Shown here piece by piece: positions 5,580-47,328 of a stretch of 64,000 nt of DNA. A program made the position numbers and the translations under genes. Below the pieces are notes generated by a model that was not told the DNA's origin, did no database searches, and saw only the letters and a list, made by a program, of their open reading frames with translations. The stretch spans positions 17,501,437 through 17,565,436 of the forward strand of contig OZ316895.1 in assembly GCA_973895155.1 (NCBI GenBank), in the 5' to 3' direction. Each line of letters starts with the position of its first letter. Position 1 is the first letter of the stretch. The stretch comes from Marsupella aquatica. Its lineage: Eukaryota; Plantae; Marchantiophyta.

Positions 5580-5755
5580 AAATGCGACATTATTCATCTT
5601 TTCAATGCGACATTATTCATCTTTTCAATGCGACATTATTCTAATTCATCTTTTCAATGCTCAACTTGTCACTTTCCCCAGAACTCAGAACACTCCTTGA
5701 AATCTTTAATGCCCAACTTGTCACTTTCCCCAGAACTCACAATACTCCTTGAAAG
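5580..5755. repeat. Short tandem repeats
   Basis: ATGCGACATTATTCATCTTTTCA about 3 times, then CAACTTGTCACTTTCCCCAGAACTCA-containing unit twice. Confidence 0.8.
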
Positions 5756-6254
5756 CCAGCTGTTCTCACTACTCAAAATCTAGTTCCCAAGAAATCTCAC
5801 AACCTCCACTCAACATCATTTCCTATTGACCGTCCCATCCAATGCACAGGCATTGGGCAAGTACTTACATCAAACACTATTTTGGCAGTAGCTCTAACTA
5901 CAGCAACCAATCACATCAAACACACTATTTTGGCAATAGCTCCAATTGCTCGCAACAAGCTATTGCTGGGCATTTGTAGATACTGAGAGGCAAGGCATGC
6001 CATGCAATGAGGTTACGGTACAAAGAGTTGTGTTCCACATCGAGGTTTCAGAGTTTGTTGCCAGCTTTTGGAGAGTTTCATTGCACACACACCCCATTCT
6101 GTAGCGTGTTGTTGTAAGACCACTCAGTCCCACTATTTACAATACAATAGCTTTCGTTAGAGATGCAGATGATCACAGCATTGTACAACCTTAACAACCA
6201 CGGACAAATACTCCACCCTGAGCAATAGGTCCTTAGTAGATCTCCTATCAGAGG

Positions 6255-9200
6255 TCATCCCTTTCCTTCTCCTTGGAAAGGATCTGGGTGATCTATAATA
6301 CCCTTGAGGCCCAAAGTTTTAATGGTTCGAGAGTTCAGCTGCGGTGGTCTATCGAATCCCAAAACCTTAGAGTACACACTAGCGAGCTTCACAGCTTCCA
6401 TTTTTTCAGAACCAGATGGAGCTTTGACAAGGTGATATCTCAACCATGCTAAATAAGCTTTGACCCTAACGAGGCGGTCTACTTGTTGCACAGCATCCTG
6501 CACCTGCATCCACCAGCGCAGGGAGCATCATCGTGAGCTCATGGATTTGTGCCATGGAGGCACAAGGAGCAATGGTTCAATTCTAATGTAATGCATGGAG
6601 ACATTCATTGAATTGAATCGAATTTAAAGCCATCAATCCAAAGATGGAGAAAGCAACAGTTATCCCTTAGACTGCAAGAAAGGACCGAAAGAAAACTTAA
6701 ATACTAAGACAGGTCCCTGCTGTTCTTACAAAGAGGATATTTCTAGATCTGTTTTGCATTCTGTACAATAAATGGGCCAGTCAAGCTCCTTCACTATAGT
6801 GCTCAAAAATTTGTTAAGAGACCCCTCGACGAACTCAAGGGGTTGAAAAGACAAGAAGAAATGAGTGAATACTTAAAGTTGACGGACTTCATTAAAATTA
6901 AACTATTGATCGAGCAAACTGTCAGACACATACCTTAGCGTCCATGTCTGAATTCAGTTCGGGCCAAGCTAATTCCCAGAGTGGAATAGCCGAAAGTTCA
7001 TTGAGAAATGGCTTCTCGTGGGGCATGAGTAGTAACGAGCACTGTCGTTCCTTCTGTTCTTCCCCAGTTAAAATCAATCTTCGACCATACTGCTCCCGCC
7101 CTGCTGGTCGCCCGACCTGCCAAGGAAGATCAACATTTGTTTCCTTTCAGGCAGTACTAACCATCTCTTACAATTTTACTATGACTGCTGGGTGCAAAAT
7201 GCTCTATTTTTCACTACATTAGTGATGGCTCTGACAACTCCTAATGCTCTCTGTATACCATTCCCGCACATCACCGCACAACTCTCGAGAACTTTCTGCT
7301 GCTCGTCCCTATATGCTTCAGTGACAGAACTACGCGGAAAGTCCAAAATCGAACTTAGCATTTGCCGTTGAAAACCTTCCGGGGGTAGTATTTACTTGAG
7401 ATGTCATAATACAGAATACAACTCGACATTCAAGATCAAATGACAAAAGAAAGCACACAAAATAGTACCTGAAGAATAAGAGTGACATCTGGATTTGCGA
7501 CTCCCCAAACTGATGCACCAGTAGTAAATAAAATAACACAACCCTTCATAGTTCGAAATACTGCCGCAGTCCGATCTCGGTGCTTCTCATTCTTCCTCAT
7601 ATGCAGTTCACATGTAAAAAAGCCTAAGTTTTTGAAAGTCTCTGCCATGAAAGTCGTTGTTCGCACCGTTTGACAAAACACCACAACCTGCTCCAATTAA
7701 TTTATTCCAAAACCCAACACCCAACGTAGAAACAGCCTTAGAATCATATCCAAAGTTCAATTTATACGTATAGCTGCACTGTGAATATGCAGCAGACTTC
7801 TAAATTCCCTTGGATACAAATGCTGGGTTTCACTCCGAGGAAACAATAAAGAGCTCCCTAATCTCTAAAAGTTCTATCCAAAACGCTGGAGGGAGAAAGT
7901 AAGACTCCAACGATTCTCAGTACCTTGTAGTTAGGCTCATTTTCCACATGTGCGGTAAGGAGAGAGTGTATTAGTGCTAAATGCAACTCCACTGGCACCA
8001 CGAGAAAGTCATGTCTCACCTGCGTCATACCCATTTTCAAGAACGGGTTAACAATTCGATAATATAGACTGTATAGATAACCTAGGCTGTTTAGATAATG
8101 ATGGAAAAACAAAATAAGTGAGGAGCGAATTCAATCCTTCGGAATCGAGTCATACCATTGGGTGAGAACCTTCTTTTTCGGCAGGGCATAAATCGATAAC
8201 TTGGTGATTCTTCTTTAAGATGGTTTCAGCGAAAGCAATTAACTGCCAGAAAATTACATCCATGACTCAGAATTTAAGTCACAATACGTGTAAACCACTC
8301 TAATGTGCTTTGGATTAGCACCGTGGCATGCAGTCCAATAGATGGAATGCACAATTTGAGAAGAAATTACAGCTACATCGGGTAGACATAGCTCTCCGTA
8401 GCGGAAATTCTTCCGACTCAGCGAATTTGAAGTTAAACAAGACGGCTCATTTCTCCGCCTGATGTTCTCACTATACTAAGTAACTGGCCAAAGTTCAACT
8501 AACCATACTACGTAAAAGCTGCAGATCATTTTATGTCTTGGTGAGCAGATTAGATGGGAAGAATAATCTAAACATGCATAAAAGTGCGAGACCCTTTCCC
8601 AGGATCTAACTTCACATCCAATCAGACGCCGTCAACGTTTTAACACCAGTGCGCATTTCTGAATGAATTTACAATTTCCACAACAACTAGTTTTACCTTC
8701 ACAAACCTCATCTGACTGTAACGAAGACCACAAGAGTGTTTGTCGAGATCTGGAGATCATATATGAGATTCTTTCAATCGTGCGCCGATACCCCATATCA
8801 AGCAACTTTTGTACTTCCACGAGTACGAACAATCTAAGATCACGAAGCTGGCCACGCAACTCTGGTGACTTCTGTAGATGGTCCAGTAGGCGTCCTGGTG
8901 TTGCAACTACAATCTAGACACAGAAAAACCCTCCTTGTCAGATGAACTAGCAGTTAAACTACGTCAACTGACTCGAATCTCCAACCTTACAAGTCGGAAA
9001 TTGCCAAAGGGCTGTTCCAACAAATGTTCATATTCCCTTGCTGGTTGAAGTCAAGGACAAGCCCATAACCTTCACATTGTCAATTTTCTTGAGAAGAAAA
9101 GGAGTCTGTCGGCGAAGTACCTGGCATGGGAGAGTTCGTAAGCTGTGAGTCTCCTTCCAAATATCATTTCCTCCCTTCAGCACTTGGACCCTAATACCAG

Positions 9201-11241
9201 GGTGAAACATCAAAAGTAACTTGGCTTCAGATGCCAACAAAGAAGCACTTTCCTGAGTTGGGCACATCAGCAAAGCAGTGATGGGAAATCTACCCGACAC
9301 AGTCATATTCTGTTGAATTCTTGCAATGCCTGTAAGTGGTAGCTCCTGCCTTCTATTTATAACCAATTCAATTCCATAGATCTGCACAATGAGTGACCAG
9401 ATTAGTAATATCACTAACGAGCAGCAAACCTCGGACAAAAAGGCTCAGCAAGCTCAGTGAAAAACGGAGAATCAGGCGAAAGGACAGCTCACCAAAGAAG
9501 CGATAATATCTTCACCAGCCGTATCTGTCCTTGCAAACACGTCATCTCCTGCACTCAATACATGAGTACAGTTTATCAGCTTTGTCTATCTCCGATTCTA
9601 AGGAACCACTGCACGCCTCTCCAATACAGGACGTGAAGCACAATCCCTCAAACGAGAGAAAGAGGGAAACGCCAGATAACCCAGTGGGAGTGATAGAGTG
9701 TACACTACAACTCAAGTACGTAGTGGTATTCATAAATAAGAATCCATTTTCATTCCTGCTACTCTGCGGTGAAGTCTATTTCGCTTTCTAGGTCATTCTG
9801 GACAACTGCGGGAAAGTATGAGTATTGTTACCTTGCAAAATGATAGGAAAAGTGGCTTCTTGCAAGGGTGTCATTTTCCGAATGTCCATAATAAACGTCA
9901 AAGCTTTCAATGTTGATGGTGACAAACGAAGCTTACTAAAGCTGCACTGGAAAAGTCAACAACAGATTTGGCAGTCTGACCTTCCCAATTCCAGATCCTA
10001 AAGCAACCATCTCCTACTCATTTAATGTGGATCCTGCAACCATTCGACAGGAATTTCCATTCCAGAGTAGGATGACAATTGTAGAAATTTCAAACTCATC
10101 TCGAGTGGTAATGTCAGACTATAACTACTCCCCCGTTCAAAGGACTAAGGGCTGGTATAAGGAACGTAATTCACATTATAACTCAACGAGCAACCCGGTA
10201 TATGGAGATCCTTTGTGGGCATTTCAATACTCCAGAATGCCCACCTAAAGTCACCATGGGATCCTAGATCCCTCTCTGTTTGTCCATATTTACGATGAGC
10301 ACGCCCCCAATGCGCCCCACCAAGAATTAGGACAGAAAAACTTAGAACTGGTAGGACAAATGAAGCACCGTTTACTTGGAAGCGAGTCACTCACGGTGAG
10401 GTGGTCTGATTGTCGCTGGGCCCAGCAGGCCTTCTGTTCTTACTGATGACTATGTCCCGAACTTTTCGAATCTGCTCTGAGACCTCAGTCCTGCTTCCAG
10501 TCCAGCCTCCTTGTACAATTTCAGAAACTTGCGTCCCTGGACCAATTTGCAGGAAAAGTTTAAAAATGACTAGCCGTGGTTCACCCGGGATTCTTGAATG
10601 TAAATCTGACCTGCATCAAATCTTATGTTGCAGCAACTGAGAGGAAGGATATTGAAAGCAAGACCTTCTAAAGCTTTGCCCAGGGTTCCCACTCCTGGAG
10701 AGATATCTTTACCTGCAGCCACTCCGAGAAGGTTCCCAGGACTAAGAAGACTTGCATCTCGGTAGCTTGAGCTCATCATAACCTCACTCACTTCAGAGTT
10801 TTGGGCTGGAACATCCAAAGTTAGATTAACCAGGGGAGCTGTCTTCCGCAGTTCCTGACGTCGCCTCGTCTCAAAAATCTTTCTCTCTCTCATGAATCTT
10901 TCCTTTTCTAGCTCACGTTCGTCCTTCCTTTGACGCCTTTTCCACTGCCATTTCCTAACGCCCCCCGGATATGTCCGAGGTCCGCGTCTCATCGTCCACA
11001 ATGCTGGACCAACAGTTGCAGGCTCACCACTCTTCCTCGCCAAACCGGCCAAATAATCGAGTAGCTCATTCTTGACAAACATTTGGCAGTGCTGGAAAGA
11101 CCGCTCAAAACGCTGCGTCTCCAAAGCATTAGGCTGCGTGGCTAGCATACGAGGGGAGTCTCGCCTAAACCTTCCGATTCCAACAGAGGCACGCGAAAAT
11201 GCGTACCTCTCAGCAACACAGATGGACAGAGCTCGGTCCAT
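6255..11241 (-). CDS. Organellar (probably mitochondrial) DEAD-box helicase-like protein, RH48/RH33 (Mss116-like) family, with degenerate catalytic motifs; 11 exons, ~712 aa
   Basis: Exons 11241-10713, 10536-10395, 9941-9832, 9548-9493, 9381-9121, 8913-8707, 8242-8156, 8019-7924, 7687-7469, 7116-6934, 6503-6255. All introns are GT-AG, phases are consistent, no internal stops. N-terminal GPRTYPGGVRKWQWKR matches the RH48 signature GPRTFPGGLNKWQWKR. Also Q-motif MTPLQEAT, IVVATPGRLLDH, LLDMGY, VVVFCQT, PDVTLILQVG and C-terminal extension KAYLAWL...LGFDRPP. Confidence 0.9.
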
Positions 11242-11449: not shown

Positions 11450-12240
11450 GTCAGCTCCGGAACAGAATTAAGATTCCCCTCCTGACCACCGAAATTCGGA
11501 ATCAAGATTGGGTGAGGGAGAGTATGTCGAGAGGCTCTTCGTCCAACCCTACTCTTCTAAATTCCGTCAACTCCTGTACTGAATTCTTATTCCCCATCTG
11601 ACCCCCGATATTCGAAATCAAAATTGGGTGTGGGTACCTCGAAAGGCTCTTCGTCCAACCCTACTCTTCGAAAATCAGTCAACTCCGGAACTGACGCCCG
11701 ATTCCCCTCAAATTCGGAATCGAGATATGGTAAGGATACCTCCAATGCTCTTCGTCCAACAGGATGCTACTTCCCCTCCTCACCCCCAGACGAATCTTGT
11801 TATTAAGAATATGCTGCTCTTCGAAATGCAGTCAGCTTCGAGACTGGATTGCTGAGTCCCCAGCCGAAACTCAGTCAGCTTCGAGAGTGGGTTATGATTT
11901 CCGTCCTCCTGATCCCTGAAAGACATTAGGAATTAAGATGAGACAACTCCTTGAAATTCAGACAGCTTCGAGTCGGGATTCTAATTCCCCTCCTGCCTGA
12001 CCCCTATACGAAATTTGGAATTGAGATTGGGTAAACTCTGCCAGCTTCGAGAGTGGATTATGATTTCCGTCCTCCTGACCCCTGAAAGACATTAGGAATT
12101 GAGATGAAACTTCCTCGAATTTCGGACAGCTCCGAGACTGCATTCTGATTCCCCCTATACGAAATTCGGAATTGATATTGGGTGCTGACCCCTATACGAA
12201 ATTCGGAATTGAGATTGGGTGAGGGGTACCTCGAAAGGCT
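11450..12240. repeat. Degenerate tandem repeat array upstream of the helicase-like gene
   Basis: Recurrent GAAATTCGGAATTGAGATTGGGT, GGCTCTTCGTCCAACCCTACTCTTC and CAGCTTCGAGAGTGG units of roughly 120-180 bp. Reading frames are broken by stops and shifts. Confidence 0.8.
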
Positions 12241-15063: not shown

Positions 15064-15486
15064 CTAGTATGGTACCGCCTTGTTGAGCTTCACCCAAGTC
15101 TTCTCAGCTTCGGTACGCGGTAGAGGAGGCACTATACCGTTCAGACGCCATAGCTCCCTGTCATTTTCCTCGATGTGCAGCTCCCACTCGAATCCTCGAT
15201 CCTTGATGTAAGGGGCGAAGACGTCCTCCAGCCCTTGCACTGCGCTAGCTTTTGCTTCGGAGGTCACCGCAGTACGCGCAAGATGCTGCGACACAATTCG
15301 AACATAGTGTGAGGTCGGCTTGGCTCCCACGAAGAAAGAGTCTTCATCGACGGGGATGAAGAGGACGACCACGTAGAACGCTGGGAGGCCACGGGACGTG
15401 TAGAAGGCGGTCAGACGCTCGGAGATTGCCTTCTTGTCCTCCACCGAGAAAATGCCCGGAGCATGGAAAATTCTGTGGAGCGGCAT
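15064..15486 (-). CDS. Tautomerase superfamily protein (Tautomerase_3 / cis-CaaD-like, putative oxalocrotonate tautomerase), copy A
   Basis: 140-aa intronless ORF starting MP (Pro-1). Family motifs GLPAFYVVVLF, FVG, RIVSQHLAR, PYIKDRGFEWELHIEE, LWRLNGIVPP..EAEK.W. Confidence 0.9.
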   Translation of the reverse strand: MPLHRIFHAPGIFSVEDKKAISERLTAFYTSRGLPAFYVVVLFIPVDEDSFFVGAKPTSHYVRIVSQHLARTAVTSEAKASAVQGLEDVFAPYIKDRGFEWELHIEENDRELWRLNGIVPPLPRTEAEKTWVKLNKAVPY

Positions 15487-17811
15487 GATTGCGACTTCGC
15501 AATCCAGAACGTATCTCGCAGTCTAGACGAAGACCTTCGCTGTAATCTTCGAAACGTCAATACTCGTGCTGTCTTACTCTTTACAACCTAGATCGAACAA
15601 ATGCCACACTTGCAACGAGGTTGGGGTCTCGGCAAGGCGATTGAAGAAAGCGACCCTGTAAACAGCAGGAGAACTCGAGGAAATGGAGAGGAGAGACGAA
15701 TGATGAAATCCTGTGATGGTTCTTTACCAACTTACGGTATTTGTAGTGTAGTCACTTGAACAAACACCAAGGACCGAATAAACTTACTGCCCTGAGGAAG
15801 CCGCACATGAACCTGCTCTTTGGCTGTGACGCAAGCAAGGCTGATCAGACACGGTCTTTAATTGTTGTCGAGGAGTAAAAGTGGACCCCATTCAATGGAT
15901 GGCATCTAACAGCAGAGCAACTGTGGTGCGTTCATCATCTTAGCGAGGAACTTTGACGGTAGAATCTTGGAGTAGTCATAACGGTCTCAAATAGACAACC
16001 GTATGCTTCATATTATTGAACACATATCCATGAATTATATATTCATTCTACTGACCGTCCTGTGTATTCTGCCGAGACTGGTCCTTCGTAAATCGCGATT
16101 CGTCAAATTTGTCGGTACTCACGTCTTTGCCGCACGCGTGAATGTACATGCTTGGTAGCGATAGATGCATGCTGTGAATCTTTGCCGCATGCATGAATGT
16201 ACATGCTTGGTATCGATAGATGCATGCTGTGAATTTTGATATTCGTATTCTAGTCTAGCGCTACCTGAGTTGGCTGTAGAGTATCTAGAAATGCCTGTAA
16301 GTCTACATTCGATTGTCCATCGCTGTACTCTTGTCTGCATGATTATGGTCAAGGTTGTACCTCAAGCTGATTGGAAAACGTTGTGGTTGATGTGGTGGAC
16401 TAAATCGTAATTACTTGTTCCACCTGACCGAATTCGGCAGTCAATCAAATGACCTTACCGACAGAGCTTTTCCTTGTATTATAACAAGTTCGCAGCAGAC
16501 ATACTATTTCCCACGGACGGAGGTACACTGCTGTAGCATATATGATCTGGATCTCAGCCAACGTGAATTCTTGTCTGACTGTTGTTGGAGCAATACAGAA
16601 ACTAATTAATTGGTTGATCATAGTTTCTTTATCTTGTTCTTTATCTGACCGATGACGTTGAGCTCAATCTCATGGCAACTCCCAAACTAAGTAGAATCTG
16701 GCCCATCCAAAATTGCAGTGTACGTGGACTAATGGGCTACAAAAAGACACAAACCTTTCAAGGCCGATGTCACTGTTTGATCATCGATGCCAATGCCAAC
16801 AAGAATTCTATCATGCCCGGCTTGCTCTCCAAATTGCCAGTGCACTCGATTCTGCTTGTCCTAATACCTTTGGGCTACTGAGGGCCTGCTTTAGAGTTGC
16901 CTTTTTGTACATACCTGGATGAGTCGCTTATGAGAAGTTTGGGCTGAGTGATAGTCACAACTATGCCGAGCTTGGGAGAGGGGTACCGAAGAGATAACAA
17001 GCTTCGTGAGTTTGTCATGACAATCGTCGAATTTTGTCATGCGAAATTTTGTCGTGCGAAACCGGTCACTTTCGGACTTCTTTTGATGTGAGAGGCTTTG
17101 ATGCGCTATGTTAGTATTGAAGACCCTATTCGCCAGCTTGGTAAGACCTCGTCGCCTGACCATTGCCGCCACCTTTGGAATTTTATTTGCTGAAGGCGAT
17201 GCATTTCGTGCAACTCTTCTTCAGCCCTTTATAGACGAGCCTGGCAGAGTTTCTATTTTTTGTTGTCTCTCTCCCACTCTCTGTCTTTGCCGTTACCCAG
17301 CTCAGACAAGAATGGACGAGCTCAGCAAACAAACTAAGAAAGGAAAATAGGTAGGGGGCGGGGTGCAGGTTCCCTTATGAGCATCAGCAAGCCAATTCAA
17401 GTACAGTAGCAGAGCCTCACCTCTGCTTGACATTCACGATATTGCGGATATGGTGTCTGTGTCATACTACAGGTTAGAGCTTTAATGGAAGCAAATGGTA
17501 CCTCAGGGCCAATGCATTGCATCGAAGGTTCTGAATTTGATTATCTGAGTAGTGGTACTCTTGAGGTTGGATTTTTAAGGGCTTCAGCTTAGTTTATGTC
17601 ATCGTGAGCAAAGAACTAGCGAAGTTTGCGTACCACACTGCCATACACTTCATCGGTACAATGCATAAGTTACCTCAGAGTGTCCTCGTCAAAGCTGCAT
17701 GAGGGCATCCCGACACTTTGGTTCATCTTGAAGTTGCTGAAATTGTAGGCACGTAGCTCGGATGAGCACTAGTGCTTTCCAGCTTGTCAAGCTCCTGTAA
17801 ACTTGGCAATA

Positions 17812-18872: not shown

Positions 18873-19295
18873 CTAGTATGGTACCGCCTTGTTGAGCTTA
18901 GCCCAAGTCTTCTCAGCTTCAGTATGCGGTAGAGGAGGCACTATACCGTTCAGACGCCATAGCTCCCTGTCATGTTCCTCGATGTGCAGCTCCCACTCGA
19001 ATCCTCGATCCTTGATGTAAGGAGCGAAGGCATCCTCCAGCGCTTGCACTGCGTGAGCTTTTGCTTCGGAGGTCGCCTCCTTCCGTGCAAGATGCTGCGA
19101 CACAATTCGAATGACGTGTGAGGTCGGCTTCGCTCCCACGAAGAAAGAGTCTTCATCGATGGGGATGAAGAGGACGACCACGTAGAACGCTGGGAGACCG
19201 CCGGAAGTGTAGAAGGAGGTCAGACGCTCGGAGATTGCCTTCTTGTCCTCCACTGAGAAAACCCCCTGAGGATGGAAAATTCTGTGGAGCGGCAT
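18873..19295 (-). CDS. Tautomerase superfamily protein (Tautomerase_3 / cis-CaaD-like), copy B
   Basis: 140-aa intronless ORF with 17 amino-acid differences from copy A (~88% identity). Pro-1 retained. Confidence 0.9.
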   Translation of the reverse strand: MPLHRIFHPQGVFSVEDKKAISERLTSFYTSGGLPAFYVVVLFIPIDEDSFFVGAKPTSHVIRIVSQHLARKEATSEAKAHAVQALEDAFAPYIKDRGFEWELHIEEHDRELWRLNGIVPPLPHTEAEKTWAKLNKAVPY

Positions 19296-19623
19296 GTTTA
19301 GACTTCGTGATGCACAACGTACCTCGCAGTCCAGACAAAGACCTTCTTCGCTGTAATCTTCAAAACGTCAACACAACCTAATTCGAACAAATGCCTCTCT
19401 TGCAACGAATATCAGGTCTCGGTACACTCCAAAGGCAAGTGACCCTGTAAACAGCGGGGGACCTCGAGGAATTGGAGAGGAGAGACAAATGATGAAATCT
19501 ATGCTTGGGATAGTTCCTAACCAACTTGCGGTATTTGTAGTGTAGTCACTCGAACAAACGCCGAGGACCACAATTAACTTACTACCCGGAGGAAAGGGCT
19601 CTTCAAACCGCTCTTTGGCTGCG

Positions 19624-25286: not shown

Positions 25287-27424
25287 GGATAATTTTAGTA
25301 TCGGAATGTCTTCCCACCCCAACCCACTTTGCCCTCTCCTGGTTGGCTGCCATACTCCCCCATCATCCCTAGTCAAAGGTGGGAGAGGGTATTGAGGTTA
25401 AGTTGAGGATGGTGACTACTGTCCAATGATGATGAAAACTGGCAAATATATCTTGACCATTGGATCATTTCAACTTAACCAGAGTTCTTTTGTTTAAACA
25501 ACCATGAAAATGTGGCCACTTAGTATGATTGGAAGGAAAAAAATCCCATTGTAGTAGCTCTCAGTATATATCACACTATCAGAGTGCCAAAAAACACAAG
25601 TAGTCAAACCAAAAGACCCTATCCCAAAGACAAAGAGAGGGGGAAAACATGAGAAAAACCCATGAACATTAACTAAGGAGCCAAACAAACCAAATAGTCC
25701 CAACAGGAAAAAAGGAACACAAACCCTAGTTTCCCACTCAATAGGGTCTTTTGCCTGAGGGATCATGTCCCTTAGTTGGGCCCCTTTGTTTTTTTGGCAA
25801 TTTGAAATATACATAGTTTCCCCTCTTTGGGGGTCTCTTCCCTTTGCTATATTGTGTCCCTCTGTTTTTTTCTTGGCAGTCTGCTATATACACTAAGCAA
25901 CATTTAAATATCAGTTTTTAAAACATGTAAATACTTGCAGTACCCCCTTGTATAGGTGACACGGATCTTTTGCACAGATGACAAAATTGATAGCCAAGTC
26001 AGTACTGTACGTACAAAGGACCAATCGCAAGAGATGCTTTGGTGCCATGGAGCCACGTAAGCAGATACCTTGGCGTCCATGCATTGGCTGGTTCCTCCTC
26101 ACTCACTTGAAAAACCACCATGCGTGTAAATCGATCTCCCTCTCTCTGTTCCTCTGTCTCGCTCTCTCTGTACTCGTCTTCCTCTCTCTTTCATGCAAAA
26201 TCAGGGAGCCCAGTTGGTCTTCTAGTTGGGTTGGCTTCCTCAATCCTGAATAGGCTAGAGGACATGCTCTAGGAAGTACTGTACACATCACTGCTACTTC
26301 GAACATTACTGAAATGTAGAAGGAGTCCAAGGTTATCTCGAGCTTTGCCTGCTGAGGTCGTTCTGCTCCAGATCCTTAGAACAGAGCAATTGGTGAATTG
26401 AACTTCGTTCCTCTTTGTGTGATTTCTTGCTTGCAGATTCTCTGATTCTTCGACTTCTGATTGAGCTCGACCACGATCGGTGCAGGAGGCGATTCTGATC
26501 ACGGTACGTCACGAATTGTGGTTACGATAATCATCTTTTGCTTCTCACTTGCCTGTTTGTCCTTTCGGCTGGTCTCTAATTTAATTACATTTGCCCAGTG
26601 CCCGTTGCCTGGAACTTCGAGTCTATGGATCATTTGAGGAATAGTCCGTTCTTCTTCCTGGTGGATTGATTGATCCATCGACCAATTGTTTTTGGGCTCT
26701 GGCCTTGCCAAAATTGAGCTAGCTCATTCTTCATAATATGTCCGAGGCCCTGGTCTCTCGCCCTTAATTTTTACTCGAGAAATCTTTCTCGAGACTGTTG
26801 GAGTAGCCACAGGGTAGCAAGACTTCAATACCTGACTATGGTAAGACTACTTTGGTCATTCTTCTCCTGAATACTTGACGTATGATCTCTGGGTGCCGCG
26901 ATTCGCTTTCTGAGCGTCCAAATATTGACCAATCAATGCCACATCGATCTCCAGTGAGTATGAGGGAAGTCAGAGGAGGGTTCACTCTGTCTGGGAAGAA
27001 CAGAAAGGGAAAGAATTGACAAGATTCGGCTGGTCAATTGGACTTGACTGGCTTGCCATCATTTGCAAATTCATCCAAGAGATTTTGGATCGTTCCGCGT
27101 GATGAAACTGCCTACAAAATATCGGACAATGAATGTAATTTCGTCTCATTTTAGGGGCAGTGAGAGTAATTCCTATTACATGGTAAGGGTCACTCCCCAG
27201 CTGATTGAATTCCTGTTGAAGGAAGCTCCGTAAAGTCAGGAACATACAGATTATATTGACTGAGTATCAATTTCTTACTCAGTGATGCAACTCATGCAGG
27301 CACGCTGATTCACAACTGCCCATATCGATCCTTCGGGTGTGCAGGCTGTCCTTCTACCAACGATCTAGGAACAGGAGCTGCATTCTCACAGCAGATCGTC
27401 AGCAGCAAAGAGATCAGCACCATA

Positions 27425-30400
27425 ATGAGGTCCCAATTAGTGCAGTCCAGCAATACTGGGCTTCGGCATTTGCTGCGCACTGCTAGTGTGGCATCATGTT
27501 TTGGGGAAGAAAGCGTAAGGCCCAGGATAGGTGGGCCCGTAGCAAATCAGAGACAGGACAGTAGAAATTCAAGTCCATCTCAGGACCTGATCCACAGGAG
27601 GAGTCTGTTGGGTGATCGGAGCGATAGCAGAATTAGACCTTCTTCACCAAGTGAGAGTCTGAGGGGCCTCGGAGACAGAAGGTTTTACTCAACGGATGCT
27701 GCATCAAAGGAAGGGTTGGAGACCAGTGGAGACATTCTGGTCAAGATCGAAGTTCCCCACCTCCTGCATATGCTAGACGACGGGCCGGCTCAGGAAATTC
27801 GTACAAGCAAGGAAGAATTGATGGAAATGTATCGCAACATGACGACTGTACGCCGTTTTGAAATTCAGGCTGACATGGTACTGCTTATTAATCTTAACTA
27901 ATCCCATCAGTGTACGTTGTGCATCATGTGTTTCGGCAATGTATCCATTTCCTTATTTACCTGTTTCGTTGTTTTTGCCCTTTTTGGATCATATTATTTC
28001 TGTACCGATTCGATTAGGTTCAGTGCGTTTTTCGAGTTCACGCAATTTAACTCATTTCAATTCAATTCTGTCCGATTCAATGTGCTCCGGGTGCTGGCGT
28101 AGTTCAAGCGTTTATTAGAATCCTAGTGTGTCTGCCCTTGGTTAAGAATTATGAGTCCAGCTGCTTTCCAAAATTCAGCAGCCGAGGATAGGCAGCTTTC
28201 TAGATGAGTGCACAGATGCATAGGACCACATTGCACCTTTTATAATTTGTGAGTACAGTTTTTCGTTGCAACATCTGATGAACTTTAGCTGTTCTGGGTC
28301 TGCCAATGTAGCTCTTCAAGGCACAATTTGTACGTGGATTCTGTCACCTATGCGATGGACAAGAAGCTGTGAGCGTGGGTATGGAAGCAGCATTGACCTT
28401 TGAAGACTCCATCCTAACCGCGTATCGAGTTCATGGAAATTATCTCGCGCGGGGAGGGACACCCTTTGTGAGTATCAACAATCATAATTTGAAATGCCCC
28501 GACAGCTGGTACACATAGCATGGTGATGCTGTAAGAGTATGACATATGTGCATCGTCCATAACCCCCAGGACCGTTAAGCATAGAATAATTAGTGGCCAA
28601 GAGCTTAAAATTATCGATCCAGAGTCGAACAAACTCAGCAATAGGAAGGTCTTTCCGTTGGCCAATAAATGATCTGAATTCGTTTCTCGAGTTGTTTTAG
28701 GAAGCGTTTTCGGAGTTGATGGGCAAGAAAACTGGTGCTGCCATTGGAAAGGGAGGATCCATGCACTTGTACAAGAAGGAGAACAATTTCTACGGAGGAT
28801 GGGGTATAGTTGGCACGTCTGGTCCTTTGGGAACAGGCGTTGGGTTTGCACAGAAATATCTGAAAAAGAAAAATGTTTCGGTTGCTATATATGGTGATGG
28901 CGCTGCAAACCAGGTAAATGACTAGTGTCTGTGGACCCGAAATTAGCTAGCATCAGAGATGAATAGTCAGCAGGCATGATTGTCTGCACCCACAGCATTT
29001 GTGTGATATCTTCCACCGGTTTGGTGTTGACAGTATGTTGCGTGCTACTTCTCACTGGATAAAAGGTGGCACTCATGGTGCAAACAGGCTTTAGTCCTTG
29101 CTTAGTTGCTGAGATGAGGTTCAACTCAAAATGGCTTTTCATTGTGACAGGGCCAACTATTTGAGTCTCAGAACATTGCAGCCTTGTGGGACTTGCCTGT
29201 TATATATCTGGTGGAGAACAATCATGTGAGAACAGTCATGCTCTATGTTGGGAAACCTTTCCTTTCAATTTCAGAATGATCGGTCCGAGAATAAATTCCC
29301 TGCTGGGATCTCGAATGATCTTGGTCTTACAATAGAATTTCATACCATGATGGTTTAGCAGACATGTTCGAACTAACTTGTTGTGTGCAGTATGGGATGG
29401 GAACAGCCGAGTGGAGAGCTTCAAAGAAAACAACGTTTTATGACCGGCTGAGCTACATCCCAGGAATCAAGGTACTTCTGGGAGTTCAATTGTGATTTTT
29501 GAAATTCTTACCCAGCATGATATGCACTACTTACTTTGAGTGGACCCCGAACTACATGACTTACATACAGTTAGTGACCTCCTGTGATCCTGCGTAGTTC
29601 CCATCTGTTTGCAAGGGGGAAATCTGTGGCTGTTTTTGTAAACATCGCTGAATTGTGATGCTGGTGGTGCAGGTAGATGGTATGGACGTGTTTGCTGTGA
29701 AAAGTGCCTTCCTGTATGCGAAGGCGCATTGTCTTGCTGGGAAGGTATGAATTGCAGTATCGTTGTTCTTTGATATTAACAAGCAGTAGCTTTTGTGGGA
29801 TCGGCTGGATTCGGAGTAGCGCCAGAGAAAATCCAAAAGGGTTTCGCAATCGTAGAGTGACACCAAACCTGGGAGATCCACACCCTCGTCATTGTGATCA
29901 AGCTTTAGGGCAATCTAACAAAAAGTGTATGGCTTGCAGGGTCCGATTGTATTGGAGGCTGATACGTACAGATATCATGGTCACAGCATGTCAGACCCAG
30001 GCAGTACTTATCGTGACCGAAGTGAAATACAGGGAATTCGCAAGGCGCGAGATCCCATTGAGCATTTGAAAAAGATTATACTGCAGGTCACATTTTGTCC
30101 TTTGGTCCTTTGGTCCATTTCTTTTATATCTGTGTACTTCATACTTATTAGTTGTTGTCGACGAGTAAGCATCTATGTTTTGGCTCCCTTTCTTGGACTA
30201 TGATCCAAATTATGAAAAGAAAATGACAGATTCATTTTGCATGAAGACTTCGTTTTTCCAGATCGAATAGTATAGAGCGGCAAGAACATAAACACGAAAG
30301 AGTAGTGAGCTGCGGGGCAGTCATCATCTGTTTCGTGCTTGATTCTTTGTTGATTTGAATTGCAGGAGGACGTAAGCTCAGCTGATGAGTTGAAAAGTAT

Positions 30401-33157: not shown

Positions 33158-33961
33158 CTATGTTTTGAAGAATAGTTCATTGGCTTGATCAGGGAAGAAC
33201 TGCAAGAAGAGGAAAGCTAACACGAGAATTGTACCAAGAATGACAGAGAACTTTCCCTGGACAGTCACCAGTCCACCTTTGCCTCCATCTTTGAGCTCAA
33301 CTTCACCATTCTTCGGGAAAAGACCTGGTGGCACACTTTGCAATCCCGTCGAAATATACGCAAGATTTTGGTACCCCAGTTCCTGTAATCTGTCGCTTGC
33401 GTAGCCAGACCTGAGACCCTCGTTGCAGACCAGAAGAAGCTTGCTATCCTTCCGGAACTCTTTTGTGACTTGAGAATTGAATTCAGGGTTCTGTTTGGTG
33501 AATGCAAGGCCGTAAAAGAGGCCGGAAAAACCATTATGCAATTGCCTGTTGACAATAGTACCAATGTCCATGTCCTCGTTCTTAATGAAGTAGGGGATAT
33601 GGACAGCGGTGGGGATATGACTGCGCTCGTACTGAACCTGATCCCGGATGTCCACGATCGTGTACCCCTCTTCATCAACTAATTTCTTCGCCTCTTCAGC
33701 ATTCACATATTGGACCTCCGCAACTGCCTGACCTGCCACCAAACTTACGCTTCCCCTCTGGCTGCTCCCTCCAATCCTTTCGACCTCCTGCCTCACGACT
33801 CTTTGAAACGGACTGCCTTGCAACGAAGGGCTTCGTGAGAATCTCCCAGATCCTTTCAACCCACATCTTCTAGAGCTGCTTCGATGAGTGTTGGACGCCG
33901 GAGGCAATGCTGGCAGCGAGGCCACATTGCCACACAACCTGAACGAAGTGGAGGTCGCCAT
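33158..33961 (-). CDS. STR9: Plastid rhodanese-like domain protein (STR9-like), intronless
   Basis: Transit-peptide-like N-terminus from ATG 33961. VNAEEAK, DIRDQVQYERSHIP, LLLVCNEGLRS and a C-terminal TM segment ending QFFPDQA match Arabidopsis STR9. Confidence 0.9.
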   Translation of the reverse strand: MATSTSFRLCGNVASLPALPPASNTHRSSSRRCGLKGSGRFSRSPSLQGSPFQRVVRQEVERIGGSSQRGSVSLVAGQAVAEVQYVNAEEAKKLVDEEGYTIVDIRDQVQYERSHIPTAVHIPYFIKNEDMDIGTIVNRQLHNGFSGLFYGLAFTKQNPEFNSQVTKEFRKDSKLLLVCNEGLRSGYASDRLQELGYQNLAYISTGLQSVPPGLFPKNGEVELKDGGKGGLVTVQGKFSVILGTILVLAFLFLQFFPDQANELFFKT

Positions 33962-36076
33962 CGATGGATGGCGACTCAATACACTGACCACACTCAAATC
34001 ACACTACTCCACAACTCAACTAGCTGCTTGGGGGCTCTCTTCACTTGAAATCCAATCGAAGAACGAGCTGAGTACCAAGTAAAAGGTCCTCCAGACGAAC
34101 AATCTCCTCTCGACTATGAAGTCCTCCGAATTCATACAAGCAGTCTTTCAGGATTAGCCTCAGTAGCGGAACCCATGCTTTGAACTCAATCAAATTCTCC
34201 ACCAGCAATCTCCACAGCTCGGATCAGACTAGTGCCATGGTTTTGCCTGGCGGAACGATGGGATTTGGGTGTAATAAGCCCGACCAATGAGAAGAGTGGC
34301 ATAGTGAGGGTCAGACTGATAGTCATTGAGAGCAGTTTGTTCACACTTTCTCGAATCGCAGACTACCGCAAACGGGATAACTTTGAATTGAGGAAGATCC
34401 ATTACGACCAGTGTCTGTCTGGAGCTGGAATTTGCCGAGAATGTGGTTACACCTTCATCGTCATGTAAAGAGGTCAGCGAGGACATACCGGAAGATCTAA
34501 CGGGAGTGGGAAGTCCGATGCTTTGGAATTTTGAGATCGGACCGTCCAATGTCTGCTGCGGTTGTAGATAAGGTGAACAGATTACTCATAGGAGCACTGA
34601 ACGTGGTCAAGTTTGTCAAGGATTAGTTTGGTACTTTGGTCACCCGAGTTCAATCCCTGTGGACGCATATATATATTTCAGGTGTTGCGTTTTTTTCTTT
34701 CCTTTCGGGGGAGAAAGGTGTAGGGTAGCCAAGACCTCTAGGAGGTTATAGCCTGTCAGGGGGTTAGAGGCTCTAAGTCCAGTGGGGAATGGAGGAAATA
34801 GCTCAGATAGGGGGGACTGGTTAGCAAGAATAGACTTGGAATTAAGGAGTTGCAGTCCTATCTCCACCAATAACATGGATTAATCTGGTAATCCCCAGGC
34901 GAGGTTATCGCCCATAACCTTCAATAAAAATAGAAAGGAGAATTCACAAAGAGAAAAACCCACCAAACTTAGTGTTACTTTGGACTCAAAAACACTTTTT
35001 ACTAGTACTTTGAATTATAACCTAACACTGCTCTTGCCTCCCCACCACTCTCAATTTTGCCCAAAATTACCGCATCCTCATCCAGGACATAGTTATGATC
35101 ACCCTAAATAATATTTGTTCTCTGGGCATACTCCTGTCCCACCTTGCCATTGACCACCTACCCTTGGCTCACCCTTGCCCATCACCCTAGGCCTGCCTTG
35201 CTCCTGACCACCCACACACCCTAAACTATCCTCATACTTGCTTGCCTTTGCTTCCCAACTTGCCTTGGCCCCTTACAACCAGCCAACCTTATCCCTAAAA
35301 ACGAACAGCAACATTTTGGGTTTGCCAAGTCCTCACCAGGGACCAATCATGCCATCATCCTTCCACATAAGCCTTGCCCGTTTAGCTTGCTCGTGATACC
35401 AGCCATTTTTTTGTGGGCAAAAATTAGCCAAACACATACCTAAAAAAAAAGCAGGCAGCTAATGATACTTAAGCTGAAATTTTAAAAATTCTGATTCATT
35501 TGCCACCACCTAAAGCACTATGAGGGAGTGTTAGCCAGGAAATACTCTACAATACTTAAAACTTACTCCATCCAGACCTGTGCTTGTCTGTAGGGTAAAA
35601 CAGTAGCCACCTTGACTAATGTTTAAAATTAAGAAAGAAAAAAAATTGGCTGCCTGATACCCTACCCTTGCTCATCGTTTCCCCCCAGTTGGCCCAAACC
35701 ATCCTCACTTGTGCCCACCGCCCTAGAGGCACCTTACTTTTGACTGCCCAGGGCATTGCCCTCATCCTTGTCCACCCTTGCTGCCATTTCAACCACTTTT
35801 GATCACTCTCCTCCAATTCAAACCCACCTCTCCCAACCATCTCTACCCTTGCCCACTCGCTTGCTTTGCTGCCACAAACTGCTATCACCCTTGCTTGACC
35901 TCACTCTTGCATATGTACTTGAATTGGCATCACCCTCACCTAATTTAGAGCGACTGGCAATGTAGATGCATATTAATGCCAAAATCTGTACGGTTAGAGA
36001 GACCACTACCCGCAGATTTGCCCGACCTTAGTACTGATATAATTACACAAAATGAGACTTCACTTCTATGCAACAG

Positions 36077-38142: not shown

Positions 38143-38545
38143 GAGGCTTCTCGACCTAGATGCTTACGTACACAACAAGCACTTGCACCATCATCATCTC
38201 CCTGAGCCGGTGCTTTTCATTCGTTTCGAGGACATCGAATCGAGGCCATCTAGCGAAGCCCTAGATCGAAATCGTTTCTTCAGCAGAAGCGGCCCCTTCG
38301 CGCCGCTCTTCCGCCCCGACGTTTGATCCGCGCGCTCAGGGTCTCAGTACTGTTGCGGTACGCTTTGGGATTCTTCTTTCTTCACTGCTCTCGAGTTCTT
38401 CTCGTCATTTCTGCTCGAGACAGCTCAGGGATTCCTTAAGCTTTTGTGTGTGTTTCGCTCGCTCGAATCTGTTGCCGGTGACGTTTGGTGGTGTGTTTAG
38501 GGCCCCGGTCTCCTCGCTTGGAGATTTTTTTCGTCGTGAGCAGCG

Positions 38546-39016
38546 ATGGCGTTTTTCGGGAAGCTCGGTCGATCCCTTGTCGCGAGGGCGGGAAGCAATG
38601 TGCTGAGCACACCTTTGCGGGTGGAGCCTGTAGTGGCTGGCGCCGTTCCGGCCGTCTTTGTCATGCTCAACCGTGGTATGGCGTCCGCGAAGCTCTTTAT
38701 CGGCGGGCTTTCTTGGGGAACAGACGAGAAGACGTTGAGAGACGCATTTGCCTCGTTCGGGGAAGTGACGGATTGTAGAATTATCACTGACAGAGATACT
38801 GGCAGATCTAGGGGTTTTGGTTTTGTGAGCTTCAATTCCGAAGGAGAGGCTCAAGCTGCTCTGCAGGAGATGGACGGACGTGATCTGGCCGGTAGGACGA
38901 TCAGAGTTGACTATGCTACTGATAGATCTCCAGCTGGTGGATTTACCCCTAGAGGTCCTCCAAGAACTGGTGGGGGTGCCTTTGGTGCCGGCGGCGGTGG
39001 TGGCGGCGGCTGGTGA
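38546..39016 (+). CDS. Mitochondrial glycine-rich RNA-binding protein (RRM; RBG/ORRM-like)
   Basis: Presequence-like N-terminus, RNP2 KLFIGGL, RNP1 RGFGFVSF and a Gly-rich tail. Confidence 0.93.
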   Translation: MAFFGKLGRSLVARAGSNVLSTPLRVEPVVAGAVPAVFVMLNRGMASAKLFIGGLSWGTDEKTLRDAFASFGEVTDCRIITDRDTGRSRGFGFVSFNSEGEAQAALQEMDGRDLAGRTIRVDYATDRSPAGGFTPRGPPRTGGGAFGAGGGGGGGW

Positions 39017-45653: not shown

Positions 45654-46254
45654 ACACGAGCTATCCTCCAGCATGACTGCCACATCAGCTTTCCCGTGAA
45701 CTCGCGCCACTTGTTCCCCCCCTCATCCCCAAGTCCTCATTTCTAATTTCTCTCCATAGCTAGAATCTTAGACCTTCCTCGACAACTGCCCTACATGTTT
45801 CAATTCCGGGACAGCAGGTGCACCGACATTTGACAAAAAAATTTTCGTGGCTCCTGTGGAGCGCCCAAATGCACAGAAAGATTCTTGATTGAGCGACATT
45901 CTTCTTCGGTGCAGTACTAAGGCAATCTTCGATTCCCTATGCTCGGCTTTGAGTTGTGATTGAGTAGGGGCTGTCTGCGCTAATTACCTCGCGAGCTTCT
46001 TGGGTTGACCTGATCTTGATTGTGAATCTGTGGTTGAAGATGAAATTTCGCTATGAAGTTGTGAAGAATTTGGTCTAGAATCAGTGGAATGGATCTCGGG
46101 TGTTATCTGTCACATTTGGCTGCAGACTTGTAAGCTGTTTATAATATCTCCTGTCACATTTGGCTGCAGAGTTGTAAGCTGTTTGTAATATCTCTTGTGA
46201 AGACCGATCACGGTTTTAGTTTCAAAATTTGAGCTGAAAAGTGAAGACAGAGAG

Positions 46255-47328
46255 ATGGCGTCTCTAAGAACTTCGCTGCTGACGCAGTCCACTGCTGGAG
46301 GAGGATTGAAGGAGGCCTGCAGCAGTGTACCAGCAGCGTGCAAGAAGTTGGGTCGCGTATTAGAGCTCGGCAAAGGAGGATGGAAACAAGAGTTGCCGAT
46401 GTGCTTCAGAGGAGCATCAACAACCAGCAGCAGCAGAAGGACGACGGTTCTTCACAACCGCGGCACTAGTCATCTGCGGCCAGGATCCTTGAGGAGCTTT
46501 ATGTTTGGTGTGGATCCATCTGTCATTCTTATTCGGGAGGACGCGACCCCCGTCGTTCAATTTCGTCACTATCAGCAGCAGCAGAGTCAATCTGTCAACC
46601 TTGTCATTGCAGTGATTCGTCCACCACTGGAGACCTCGCCAGATATGAAACCTTCTCTGAATCCCTTCTCTCCCGACATCCAAGACCCCAACCTCCCCAC
46701 TGCCCCTGACGTTCCTCCCGACGAGTCTCCATCGGAATTCCCTGCACCGTCTACTGACCCTGATGTCGTCCCGTCTGTTCCCCAGGAAGTGCCTGTGACA
46801 GAGCCAATTCCTGAATTCACTCCTACAACGATTCCGACCCCTGAGATTCCTACTACACCGTCTGAATTCCCATCGGTCCCCTCCCAATCGCCCGTTCCTT
46901 CCATTCCAACGGAGGTTCCTCTGGTGTCTCCGGCAGAAATCCCTCTGACCCCAACTCCCACAGAGCTACCGGGCCCTGGGGGCCCTCCTGAGTTTAAGCC
47001 CATGATGGGGCATTTGTCTTCCTCGGAGGTGGAAGGGTCGGGGGTTCCTCGGGGACCGCCGATCATGCCACCCAACACTCCTCCCATTGTACCGCCGGGC
47101 ACTCCACAGCCGACTCCTCTTCCCAATTTGCCTCCAATTCCCCCTCCAGGCACTCCTCCGCCCATTGCTCCTCCTAATACTCCTCCCATCCCTCCTGGGA
47201 TGCCTGGCCCAGTCCCTCCTCCTACCCCGCCCCCTGGCTCCCCTCCTCCCTTCCCTGGACCGGAGATTCCCGCAGTGCCATTCCCGGGCCCTGAGATTCC
47301 GAACCCTCCTTCCGTTATTGGAGCCTAG
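46255..47328 (+). CDS. Proline-rich protein with a transit-peptide-like N-terminus
   Basis: 357-aa ATG-initiated ORF with a Ser/Arg-rich N-terminus followed by PPNTPPI, PEIP and PFPGPEIP repeats. Confidence 0.8.
   Translation: MASLRTSLLTQSTAGGGLKEACSSVPAACKKLGRVLELGKGGWKQELPMCFRGASTTSSSRRTTVLHNRGTSHLRPGSLRSFMFGVDPSVILIREDATPVVQFRHYQQQQSQSVNLVIAVIRPPLETSPDMKPSLNPFSPDIQDPNLPTAPDVPPDESPSEFPAPSTDPDVVPSVPQEVPVTEPIPEFTPTTIPTPEIPTTPSEFPSVPSQSPVPSIPTEVPLVSPAEIPLTPTPTELPGPGGPPEFKPMMGHLSSSEVEGSGVPRGPPIMPPNTPPIVPPGTPQPTPLPNLPPIPPPGTPPPIAPPNTPPIPPGMPGPVPPPTPPPGSPPPFPGPEIPAVPFPGPEIPNPPSVIGA

What the first reader, a model, noticed from the sequence alone, without database searches (positions are those of the whole stretch)
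6255..11241. Intact but catalytically dead DEAD-box pseudo-helicase of the mitochondrial RH48/Mss116 family
Seen: 11 exons splice in frame with canonical GT-AG sites and no stop codons, yet every ATP-handling motif is replaced. Walker A AKTGTGKT reads TDTAGEDI, DEAD reads VEVQ, SAT reads SSL, ARGVD reads VWGVA, and the arginine-finger motif HRLGRTGR reads RRLILTGE. In contrast, motif Ib (TPGR), the GG doublet, motif IV (VFCQT), part of Ia (PTQE), the Q-motif glutamine, the RH48 N-terminal signature (GPRTYPGGVRKWQWKR) and the Mss116-type C-terminal extension are kept. Known: angiosperm RH48-family proteins are organellar helicases linked to group II intron splicing and have intact motifs. Inference: concerted loss of catalysis with a preserved frame suggests a selected pseudoenzyme, such as an ATP-independent RNA clamp or scaffold for mitochondrial splicing or mitoribosome assembly.
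Basis: partly seen in the sequence, partly recalled or inferred. Interest (0 to 1): 0.85.

Follow-up and report, generated by a model that had tools for sequence, protein, structure and literature searches.

The report
Ancient dead RNA helicase of liverworts
This intact 11-exon liverwort gene encodes an RNA-helicase look-alike whose ATP-burning residues are replaced in every liverwort copy found, from leafy species to Marchantia, while most RNA-gripping residues remain, so it likely serves as a motor-less RNA-binding scaffold, probably in mitochondria, beside a normal working copy.

Summary
Confirmed and extended. The minus strand holds 11 GT-AG exons in one open frame (728 aa; exon 1 ends at 10665 by homology). 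All five motif replacements are as described. The protein is 76-77% identical to two Calypogeia fissa proteins. Orthologues in two Riccia and two Marchantia species (Mp7g07730) are dead in the same way and form one clade (100/100), so the loss predates the Devonian split of the two big liverwort classes. In 7 of 7 copies the Walker A Lys is Asp, and the first DEAD Asp and the second motif VI Arg are gone. Of 26 lost family-invariant residues, 15 are re-fixed to one new residue. TPGR, motif IV, HxR..RxR, the C-terminal extension and the N-terminal KWQWKR helix are kept. Riccia sorocarpa also has an intact paralogue. A Calypogeia model folds like Mss116. Not shown: expression, organelle, RNA binding. 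'Mitochondrial RH48' is partly right: the core is equally close to the RH26/31-like clade, and the presequence is atypical. A tight clamp is doubtful because the QxxR glutamine is lost. Pseudohelicases are known (Utp25, MUT-15); my searches found no paper on this one. It can be tested directly in Marchantia.

The parts
10665..11241 (-). Exon 1: ATG, about 83-residue N-terminal extension (possible transit peptide), RH48-type signature and helix, start of linker. In-phase alternative donor after 10713.
10936..10992 (-). N-terminal signature (residues 84-102, ...YPGG..KWQWKR), followed by a predicted long helix; 55-62% identical between liverwort classes over residues 89-135
10395..10536 (-). Exon 2: linker
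9832..9941 (-). Exon 3: Q motif (F241, Q267 kept here; Gln lost in both Riccia copies)
9493..9548 (-). Exon 4: dead Walker A (TDTAGEDI; Gly-Lys replaced by Glu/Asp-Asp in 7 of 7 copies)
9121..9381 (-). Exon 5: motif Ia (PTQE, Arg lost) and GG doublet
8707..8913 (-). Exon 6: TPGR kept; motif II VEVQ; motif III WSSL
8156..8242 (-). Exon 7: end of domain 1 and inter-domain linker
7924..8019 (-). Exon 8: start of domain 2
7469..7687 (-). Exon 9: motif IV (VFCQT), IVa (H, R, R, R kept; Gln lost), motif V/Va (GASVWG for DVSARG)
6934..7116 (-). Exon 10: dead motif VI (RRLILTGE)
6255..6503 (-). Exon 11: Mss116-type helical C-terminal extension (AYxAWLRYH) and stop codon

Best explanation
This is an intact gene of a liverwort-wide clade of DEAD-box proteins that have lost the ATP-binding and hydrolysis residues, and its product likely acts as an ATP-independent RNA-binding scaffold in an organelle, probably the mitochondrion. 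Shown: the intact frame; the motif losses in 7 of 7 copies; one clade spanning Jungermanniopsida and Marchantiopsida; the retained RNA-face residues; a predicted Mss116-like fold for the Calypogeia orthologue; an intact paralogue in Riccia sorocarpa. Inferred from DEAD-box enzymology: without the Walker A Lys, the first Asp of DEAD and the second motif VI Arg it cannot hydrolyse ATP, and two acidic residues in the P-loop would repel phosphates. Inferred mechanism: after an early duplication of the single RH48/RH26-31 progenitor, one copy kept unwinding. This copy kept the RNA surface (TPGR, motif IV, HxR..RxR, C-terminal extension) and the conserved N-terminal helix, and would hold a structured organellar RNA (intron or pre-rRNA) in place or bridge it to splicing or assembly factors, leaving the ATP-driven step to the active paralogue. 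Odds: conserved pseudoenzyme about 0.93; this whole mechanism about 0.55.
For: Seven dead copies lack Walker A K (0 of 7), DEAD D1 and D2 (0 of 7 each), motif Va R (0 of 7), and motif VI H and R2 (0 of 7 each); all are present in 17 of 17 intact relatives. Kept in 7 of 7: TPGR, F516, H541, R543, R549, R551, the P-T of motif Ia, and AY.AWL of the extension; PMC3590237 and PMC3590239 assign motifs Ia-Ic, IV, IVa and V to RNA binding (passages). The dead clade has 100/100 support with motif columns removed. 15 of 26 family-invariant residues lost in all seven are re-fixed to one new residue, against 85 of 362 (23%) of other columns; nominal p 2e-4. The two classes likely split in the Devonian (PMC9516144 passage). 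The AF2 model of the Calypogeia orthologue has pLDDT 78; its top Foldseek hit is Mss116 3i5x, and VIA gives Z 29, rmsd 3.3 over 458 residues. The intact R1sor_023239 and the dead R1sor_023248 lie nine locus numbers apart, both with a contig length of 51,373,258. All 7 copies have 73-85 residues ahead of the signature. Maize RH48 splices mitochondrial introns and binds PPR-SMR1, SPR2 and Zm-mCSF1 (review passages). Mss116 anneals RNA without ATP.
Against: The presequence holds 5-8 acidic residues in the dead copies against 0-3 in 8 intact signature-bearing copies, and the Arg two places before MGGG (8 of 8 intact copies) is present in only 1 of 7 dead copies, so the compartment is uncertain. 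AtRH26, of the sister clade, is listed as chloroplast (PMC5442247 passage). The QxxR Gln is lost in 7 of 7, the Ia Arg in 5 of 7 and the motif V Asp in 7 of 7, so the RNA site is altered. Mss116 needs ATP hydrolysis to promote splicing (K158), so this protein cannot do the Mss116/RH48 job itself. The clade evolves fast: window versus Marchantiales 45-56% in the two RecA domains, against 64-72% for intact Riccia versus Sphagnum. Differences in one related run gave pN/pS 0.46, not significant (p 0.11; 40 of 74 sites listed). The seven copies are only about four lineages, so the re-fixation p value is overstated.
Confidence: 0.55

Rival explanations
1. It is a regulator or decoy of its active paralogue: it pairs with it, or competes for the same RNA and partners through the shared N-terminal helix, and tunes its activity.
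For: The N-terminal signature and helix are the best-kept region shared with the active copy (49-62% identity). An active paralogue coexists in R. sorocarpa. Pseudoenzymes often regulate active relatives (own knowledge).
Against: The RNA-face residues are kept as strictly as the helix, which a pure protein regulator need not do. No interaction was tested.
Confidence: 0.15
2. Same motor-less RNA-binding role, but in another compartment (plastid, or cytosol/nucleus from a start at Met84).
For: The presequence is acidic and lacks the Arg before the signature in 6 of 7 copies. The sister clade includes the chloroplast-listed AtRH26.
Against: The signature is shared with RH48/RH33, which act on mitochondrial introns. 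An open extension of 73-85 residues is kept in 7 of 7 copies, with net positive charge.
Confidence: 0.15
3. It is a protein-only scaffold of the MUT-15/Utp25 kind that no longer binds RNA through the helicase face; the kept residues are structural.
For: The QxxR Gln, the Ia Arg and the motif V Asp are lost or mostly lost. Known pseudohelicases act as scaffolds.
Against: The arginines of TPGR, HxR and RxR are kept in 7 of 7, and new invariant Arg residues appear in motif VI and the extension.
Confidence: 0.1
4. It keeps residual nucleotide binding or slow ATPase through an unusual site.
For: The Q-motif Phe (7 of 7) and Gln (5 of 7), an acidic residue at the DEAD Glu (7 of 7), the SAT Ser and the first motif VI Arg survive.
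Against: The P-loop Gly-Lys is acidic in 7 of 7, the Mg-binding Asp and the second motif VI Arg are absent, and both Riccia copies lack the Q-motif Gln.
Confidence: 0.03
5. It is a young duplicate decaying to a pseudogene, or an artefact of the gene model.
For: No transcript evidence is in hand. Broken partial copies exist among contigs of the same runs.
Against: Full-length orthologues with the same replacements occur in five other species of two classes. The four indels listed in a related run are all in introns.
Confidence: 0.02

Closest known systems
Plant RH48/RH33 (maize ZmRH48, Arabidopsis At1g63250 and At2g07750) and their intact bryophyte progenitor (R1sor_023239, Sphagnum copies)
   Same: N-terminal PGG..KWQWKR signature and helix, two RecA domains, helical C-terminal extension; about 40% identity to the intact Riccia copy over the core. 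RH48 and RH33 act in mitochondrial group II intron splicing (PMC11122041 and PMC10887915, passages).
   Different: Motifs I, II, III, Va and VI are destroyed; the linker is shorter; the presequence is more acidic. By the core it is no closer to RH48 than to the RH26/31-like clade.
Yeast Mss116p
   Same: Top Foldseek match; core plus extension align over 458 residues (Z 29, rmsd 3.3). TPGR Arg and extension kept.
   Different: Mss116 needs ATP hydrolysis (K158) for splicing (PMC3590239 passage). By sequence, Has1/DDX18 score higher than Mss116 among solved structures. No basic C-tail is evident.
Pseudohelicases Utp25/Def (PMC9539457, first quarter of the text read) and C. elegans MUT-15 (bioRxiv 10.64898/2026.09.04.749402, passages)
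   Same: DEAD-box fold kept, ATP motifs lost; both are components of RNA-processing complexes, and MUT-15 is shown to be an ATPase-dead scaffold.
   Different: Those are far diverged (MUT-15 was recognised by structure search, Utp25 has limited sequence similarity) and act in the SSU processome or the small-RNA pathway. This one is still about 40% identical to a living active paralogue, is plant-specific in the data seen, and is likely organellar.

Membership tests
Active DEAD-box RNA helicase | Two RecA-like domains (Pfam DEAD + Helicase_C; fold) | tested here: met
   Window exons; orthologues above Pfam cut-offs; model and fold search
Active DEAD-box RNA helicase | Walker A GKT/S | tested here: not met
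   G-K is E/D-D in 7 of 7
Active DEAD-box RNA helicase | Motif II D-E-A-D | tested here: not met
   x-[ED]-x-Q in 7 of 7
Active DEAD-box RNA helicase | Motif III SAT, motif Va ARG, motif VI HRxGRxGR | tested here: not met
   WSxx, SVWG, RRxxxTG in 7 of 7
Active DEAD-box RNA helicase | RNA-binding motifs Ia, GG, TPGR, IV, IVa, V | tested here: inconclusive
   TPGR, IV and the IVa His/Arg kept; Ia Arg 2 of 7, QxxR Gln 0 of 7, motif V Asp 0 of 7
Active DEAD-box RNA helicase | RNA-stimulated ATPase and unwinding | not testable with these tools
   needs an assay
Land-plant RH48/RH33 + RH26/31-like lineage | Branches inside the land-plant clade of this lineage | tested here: met
   SH-aLRT 97 and 99 in quick trees; the backbone is open in the careful trees
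Land-plant RH48/RH33 + RH26/31-like lineage | N-terminal PGG..KWQWKR signature | tested here: met
   7 of 7
RH48/RH33 in the narrow sense | Closer to angiosperm RH48 than to the RH26/31-like clade | tested here: not met
   The two angiosperm clades are sisters to the exclusion of the dead clade (100/99). The RH26/31 labels are mine, from recall.
RH48/RH33 in the narrow sense | Mitochondrial location and role in group II intron splicing | not testable with these tools
   Only presequence composition was examined, and it is atypical
Pseudohelicase (Utp25/MUT-15 kind) | Helicase fold with catalytic motifs lost | tested here: met
Pseudohelicase (Utp25/MUT-15 kind) | Maintained by selection | tested here: met
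   Open frame and re-fixed residues across two liverwort classes; the within-group pN/pS test alone was inconclusive
Pseudohelicase (Utp25/MUT-15 kind) | Measured lack of ATPase and a demonstrated non-catalytic role | not testable with these tools
   needs assays and a knockout

The most novel reading that the evidence does not exclude
Liverworts, and perhaps the algal ancestors of land plants, split an organellar DEAD-box chaperone into a motor and a motor-less partner. The dead copy's acidic P-loop and paired motif VI arginines stand in for bound ATP and hold the two domains shut, making a permanent RNA-folding cofactor for liverwort mitochondrial introns or ribosome assembly. Closterium copies with a degenerate motif II (EDLD) may belong to the same lineage (AU p 0.49-0.56, not rejected), which would make it older than land plants and lost elsewhere.
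Probability: 0.12. Interest if true: 0.85.

Novelty: new variant of a known kind. Interest (0 to 1): 0.63.

Why it matters
Few DEAD-box pseudoenzymes are described (Utp25, MUT-15 in the papers found), and none of my searches found one in plants or organelles. This one has lasted since about the Devonian beside an active twin that is still about 40% identical, so it is a natural experiment on which DEAD-box functions need ATP, a debated point for Mss116-type intron chaperones. Marchantia polymorpha carries it (Mp7g07730) and is a genetic model, so knockout, localisation and assay are routine. UniRef names these proteins 'ATP-dependent RNA helicase', which is likely wrong.

Tried and rejected
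No whole genome is held, so the active paralogue could not be sought in this assembly; tblastn of the window shows only this one copy. No RNA holder was listed, which says nothing about expression. A first fold on a 3-row alignment failed (pLDDT 42). The good model matches closed, RNA-bound structures (rmsd about 3) better than open ones (7-16), but 79 of its 85 alignment rows are relatives with intact motifs, so I reject this as evidence for a locked-closed state. dN/dS against Calypogeia could not be computed without its coding DNA; the substitute pN/pS was not significant. A liverwort-only duplication (dead clade plus intact Riccia copy) was neither shown nor rejected (p-AU 0.09). The Closterium EDLD proteins joined the dead clade in one quick tree (88) and the intact Closterium copy when motif columns were dropped (87/94); AU tests leave both open. 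The atlas search with the Marchantia protein returned ordinary helicase clusters, and the N-terminal helix alone gave only RH33-named or unnamed plant clusters under the naming bar. No dead copy from mosses, lycophytes, ferns or seed plants appeared among 120 + 54 listed hits of the word-indexed searches or the best 150 of 2698 representative hits; hornworts and Haplomitriopsida were not seen at all, so absence is not established. Paper searches: Mp7g07730 0 hits; Mapoly0076s0021 0; pseudoenzyme + helicase + Marchantia 0; pseudohelicase + DEAD-box 2, both other proteins; two broader searches showed no relevant title among 20 of 80 and 20 of 32 listed. Supplements and subscription papers were not searched and could list the gene. 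No complex prediction was run. Earlier scan findings held nothing on this gene.
Full report
Observation. The region 6255-11241 holds a minus-strand gene of 11 exons with GT-AG introns and a single stop at the end. tblastn with the Calypogeia orthologue runs on to 10663, and an in-phase GT follows 10665, so the better model has 728 aa. Exons 6 and 9 hit Pfam DEAD and Helicase_C on their own (2 of 11 stretches scanned). No RNA run was listed, so the splice model rests on homology.

Relatives. Exon 1 found one protein, from the leafy liverwort Calypogeia fissa, whose cluster has a second copy. The window protein is 76-77% identical to them, so the window is likely from a leafy liverwort. Further searches found orthologues in Riccia fluitans, R. 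sorocarpa, Marchantia paleacea and M. polymorpha (MPTK1_7g07730 = MARPO_0076s0021), plus an unnamed single-exon fragment with EVQ at motif II. Calypogeia belongs to Jungermanniopsida and Riccia to Marchantiopsida, which likely split in the Devonian (PMC9516144, passage).

Motifs. I compared 7 dead copies (window, 2 Calypogeia, 2 Riccia, 2 Marchantia) with 17 intact relatives; the truncated and shorter Marchantia models were left out. Lost in 7 of 7 and present in 17 of 17: the Walker A Gly and Lys (now Glu/Asp and Asp), both Asp of DEAD (the second now Gln), the Phe and Ala of FSAT, the QxxR Gln, the Asp, Val and Arg of motif V/Va (now GASVWG), and the His, Gly and second Arg of motif VI. Kept in 7 of 7: the Q-motif Phe, P-T of Ia, the first Gly of GG, TPGR, the SAT Ser, F-C of motif IV, His541, Arg543, Arg549, Arg551, the first Arg and T-G of motif VI, and AY.AWL in the extension. 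Partly kept: the Q-motif Gln (5 of 7) and the Ia Arg (2 of 7). Over 461 core columns, 99 are invariant in the intact set. Of these, 39 are kept in all dead copies and 26 are lost in all; 15 of the 26 are re-fixed to one new residue, against 23% of other columns (nominal p 2e-4; the copies are related and buried sites are favoured, so the value is overstated). The losses fall mostly on the ATP side, and many kept residues on the RNA side, as assigned in PMC3590237 and PMC3590239 (passages).

Origin. The dead copies form one clade (SH-aLRT 99; 100/99 and 100/100 with motif columns removed) on a long stem. In quick trees it lies among land-plant members (97 and 99), but its sister is unresolved. 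Angiosperm RH48 and the RH26/31-like proteins (my labels, from recall) are each other's sisters, so 'RH48 family' holds only in the wide sense; the shared N-terminal signature also occurs in intact liverwort, moss and lycophyte copies and in one Closterium EDLD protein. Two of the four runs that hold the window's DNA have contig ends that read as an intact-type start (MMGGGPR and WKRMQDKKERQ; read by hand); only this stretch is seen, and it could come from another plant in the sample. Three truncated Closterium models carry EDLD at motif II; whether they share the origin is open.

Selection. The frame has survived about 24% protein divergence from Calypogeia, whereas random change of 10% of bases closed it in 2000 of 2000 trials. 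In run X4, 40 of 74 differences were listed: 25 intronic, 6 silent, 9 amino-acid changing; pN/pS 0.46, p 0.11. None of the nine lies in exons 4-10, and the 4 listed indels are intronic. The clade evolves faster than the intact copies.

Structure. AlphaFold2 on the Calypogeia orthologue with 85 rows gave pLDDT 78, with two RecA domains, a helical extension and a confident helix at 100-137. The top Foldseek hit is Mss116 3i5x. VIA-align gives Z about 29-31 for many DEAD-box cores, with Mss116 aligning longest (456-459 residues, rmsd 3.2-3.3). By sequence, Has1/DDX18 rank above Mss116. The closed shape of the model is not evidence, since most rows are intact enzymes.

Mechanism. Loss of ATPase follows from established DEAD-box enzymology; it was not measured. 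Mss116 needs its Walker A Lys to promote splicing but anneals RNA without ATP, and its extension adds much RNA affinity (PMC3590239, passages). Maize RH48 works with PPR-SMR1, SPR2 and Zm-mCSF1 on mitochondrial introns (PMC10887915 and PMC11122041, passages; the original maize paper was not seen). I therefore favour a static RNA-binding adaptor that shares targets or partners with the active copy (0.55). A tight single-strand clamp is less likely, because the Gln-Arg contact between QxxR and motif Ia described for Mss116 is gone. The compartment is the weakest step. All seven copies have 73-85 residues ahead of the signature, but with more acidic residues than intact copies and mostly without the Arg before the signature (the processing-site rule is recalled), and AtRH26 is listed as chloroplast (PMC5442247, passage). 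[quoted passage not shown]

Novelty. Pseudohelicases are known: Utp25 (PMC9539457, first quarter read) and MUT-15 (bioRxiv 10.64898/2026.09.04.749402, passages). Searches for the Marchantia gene names and for plant pseudohelicases found no report; supplements and subscription journals were outside reach. PMC10226603 and PMC13074886 (passages) added nothing on it. Verdict: a real, ancient, apparently undescribed liverwort DEAD-box pseudoenzyme, a new variant of a known kind; its function is inferred and can be tested in Marchantia.

Noticed in passing
proteins P0219, P0216, P0141 (Closterium): Three truncated Closterium models of this family read EDLD at motif II and TNT/SNA at motif III; P0219 has the RH48-type signature. 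Intact Closterium copies also exist (P0250, P0336). Either a second, independent degeneration or an older branch of the same pseudoenzyme.
   Followed up: partly
window 6109-6505 and 7467-7680; 10677-10891: Contigs of the related runs hold diverged partial copies of this gene: one about 85% alike that skips exon 10 and has a one-base gap in exon 11, and exon-1 pieces with about 185-210 bases missing at several times the single-copy depth, perhaps fragments spread by a mobile element.
   Followed up: no
window 10940-10976 (loose ends, runs X3 and X4): Contig ends read as the start of an intact-type RH48 gene, a hint of the active paralogue in those samples.
   Followed up: partly
protein P0203 (Riccia fluitans R1flu_014899): The intact-type copy found for R. 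fluitans is a 441-aa model that stops in domain 2 and has changes in motifs Ia and III; a full-length active copy for this species was not seen.
   Followed up: no
window 15064-15522 and 18873-19367 (- strand): Two tandem single-ORF genes of the Tautomerase_3 family (E about 1e-46) inside an 83% identical duplicated block; from recall this family is mainly fungal and bacterial, so possibly an old horizontal gain.
   Followed up: partly
window 27260-27901 (+), 33158-34003 (-), 38540-39016 (+), 46201-47328 (+): Neighbouring genes: an exon resembling the start of a pyruvate dehydrogenase E1 alpha (by eye; no Pfam hit), a rhodanese-domain protein, a glycine-rich RRM protein with a long N-terminal extension, and a proline-rich ORF without a family.
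   Followed up: partly
window 11450-12183 and 5580-5760: Imperfect direct repeats of roughly 115-165 bases upstream of the gene and short repeats downstream (seen in the sequence).
   Followed up: no
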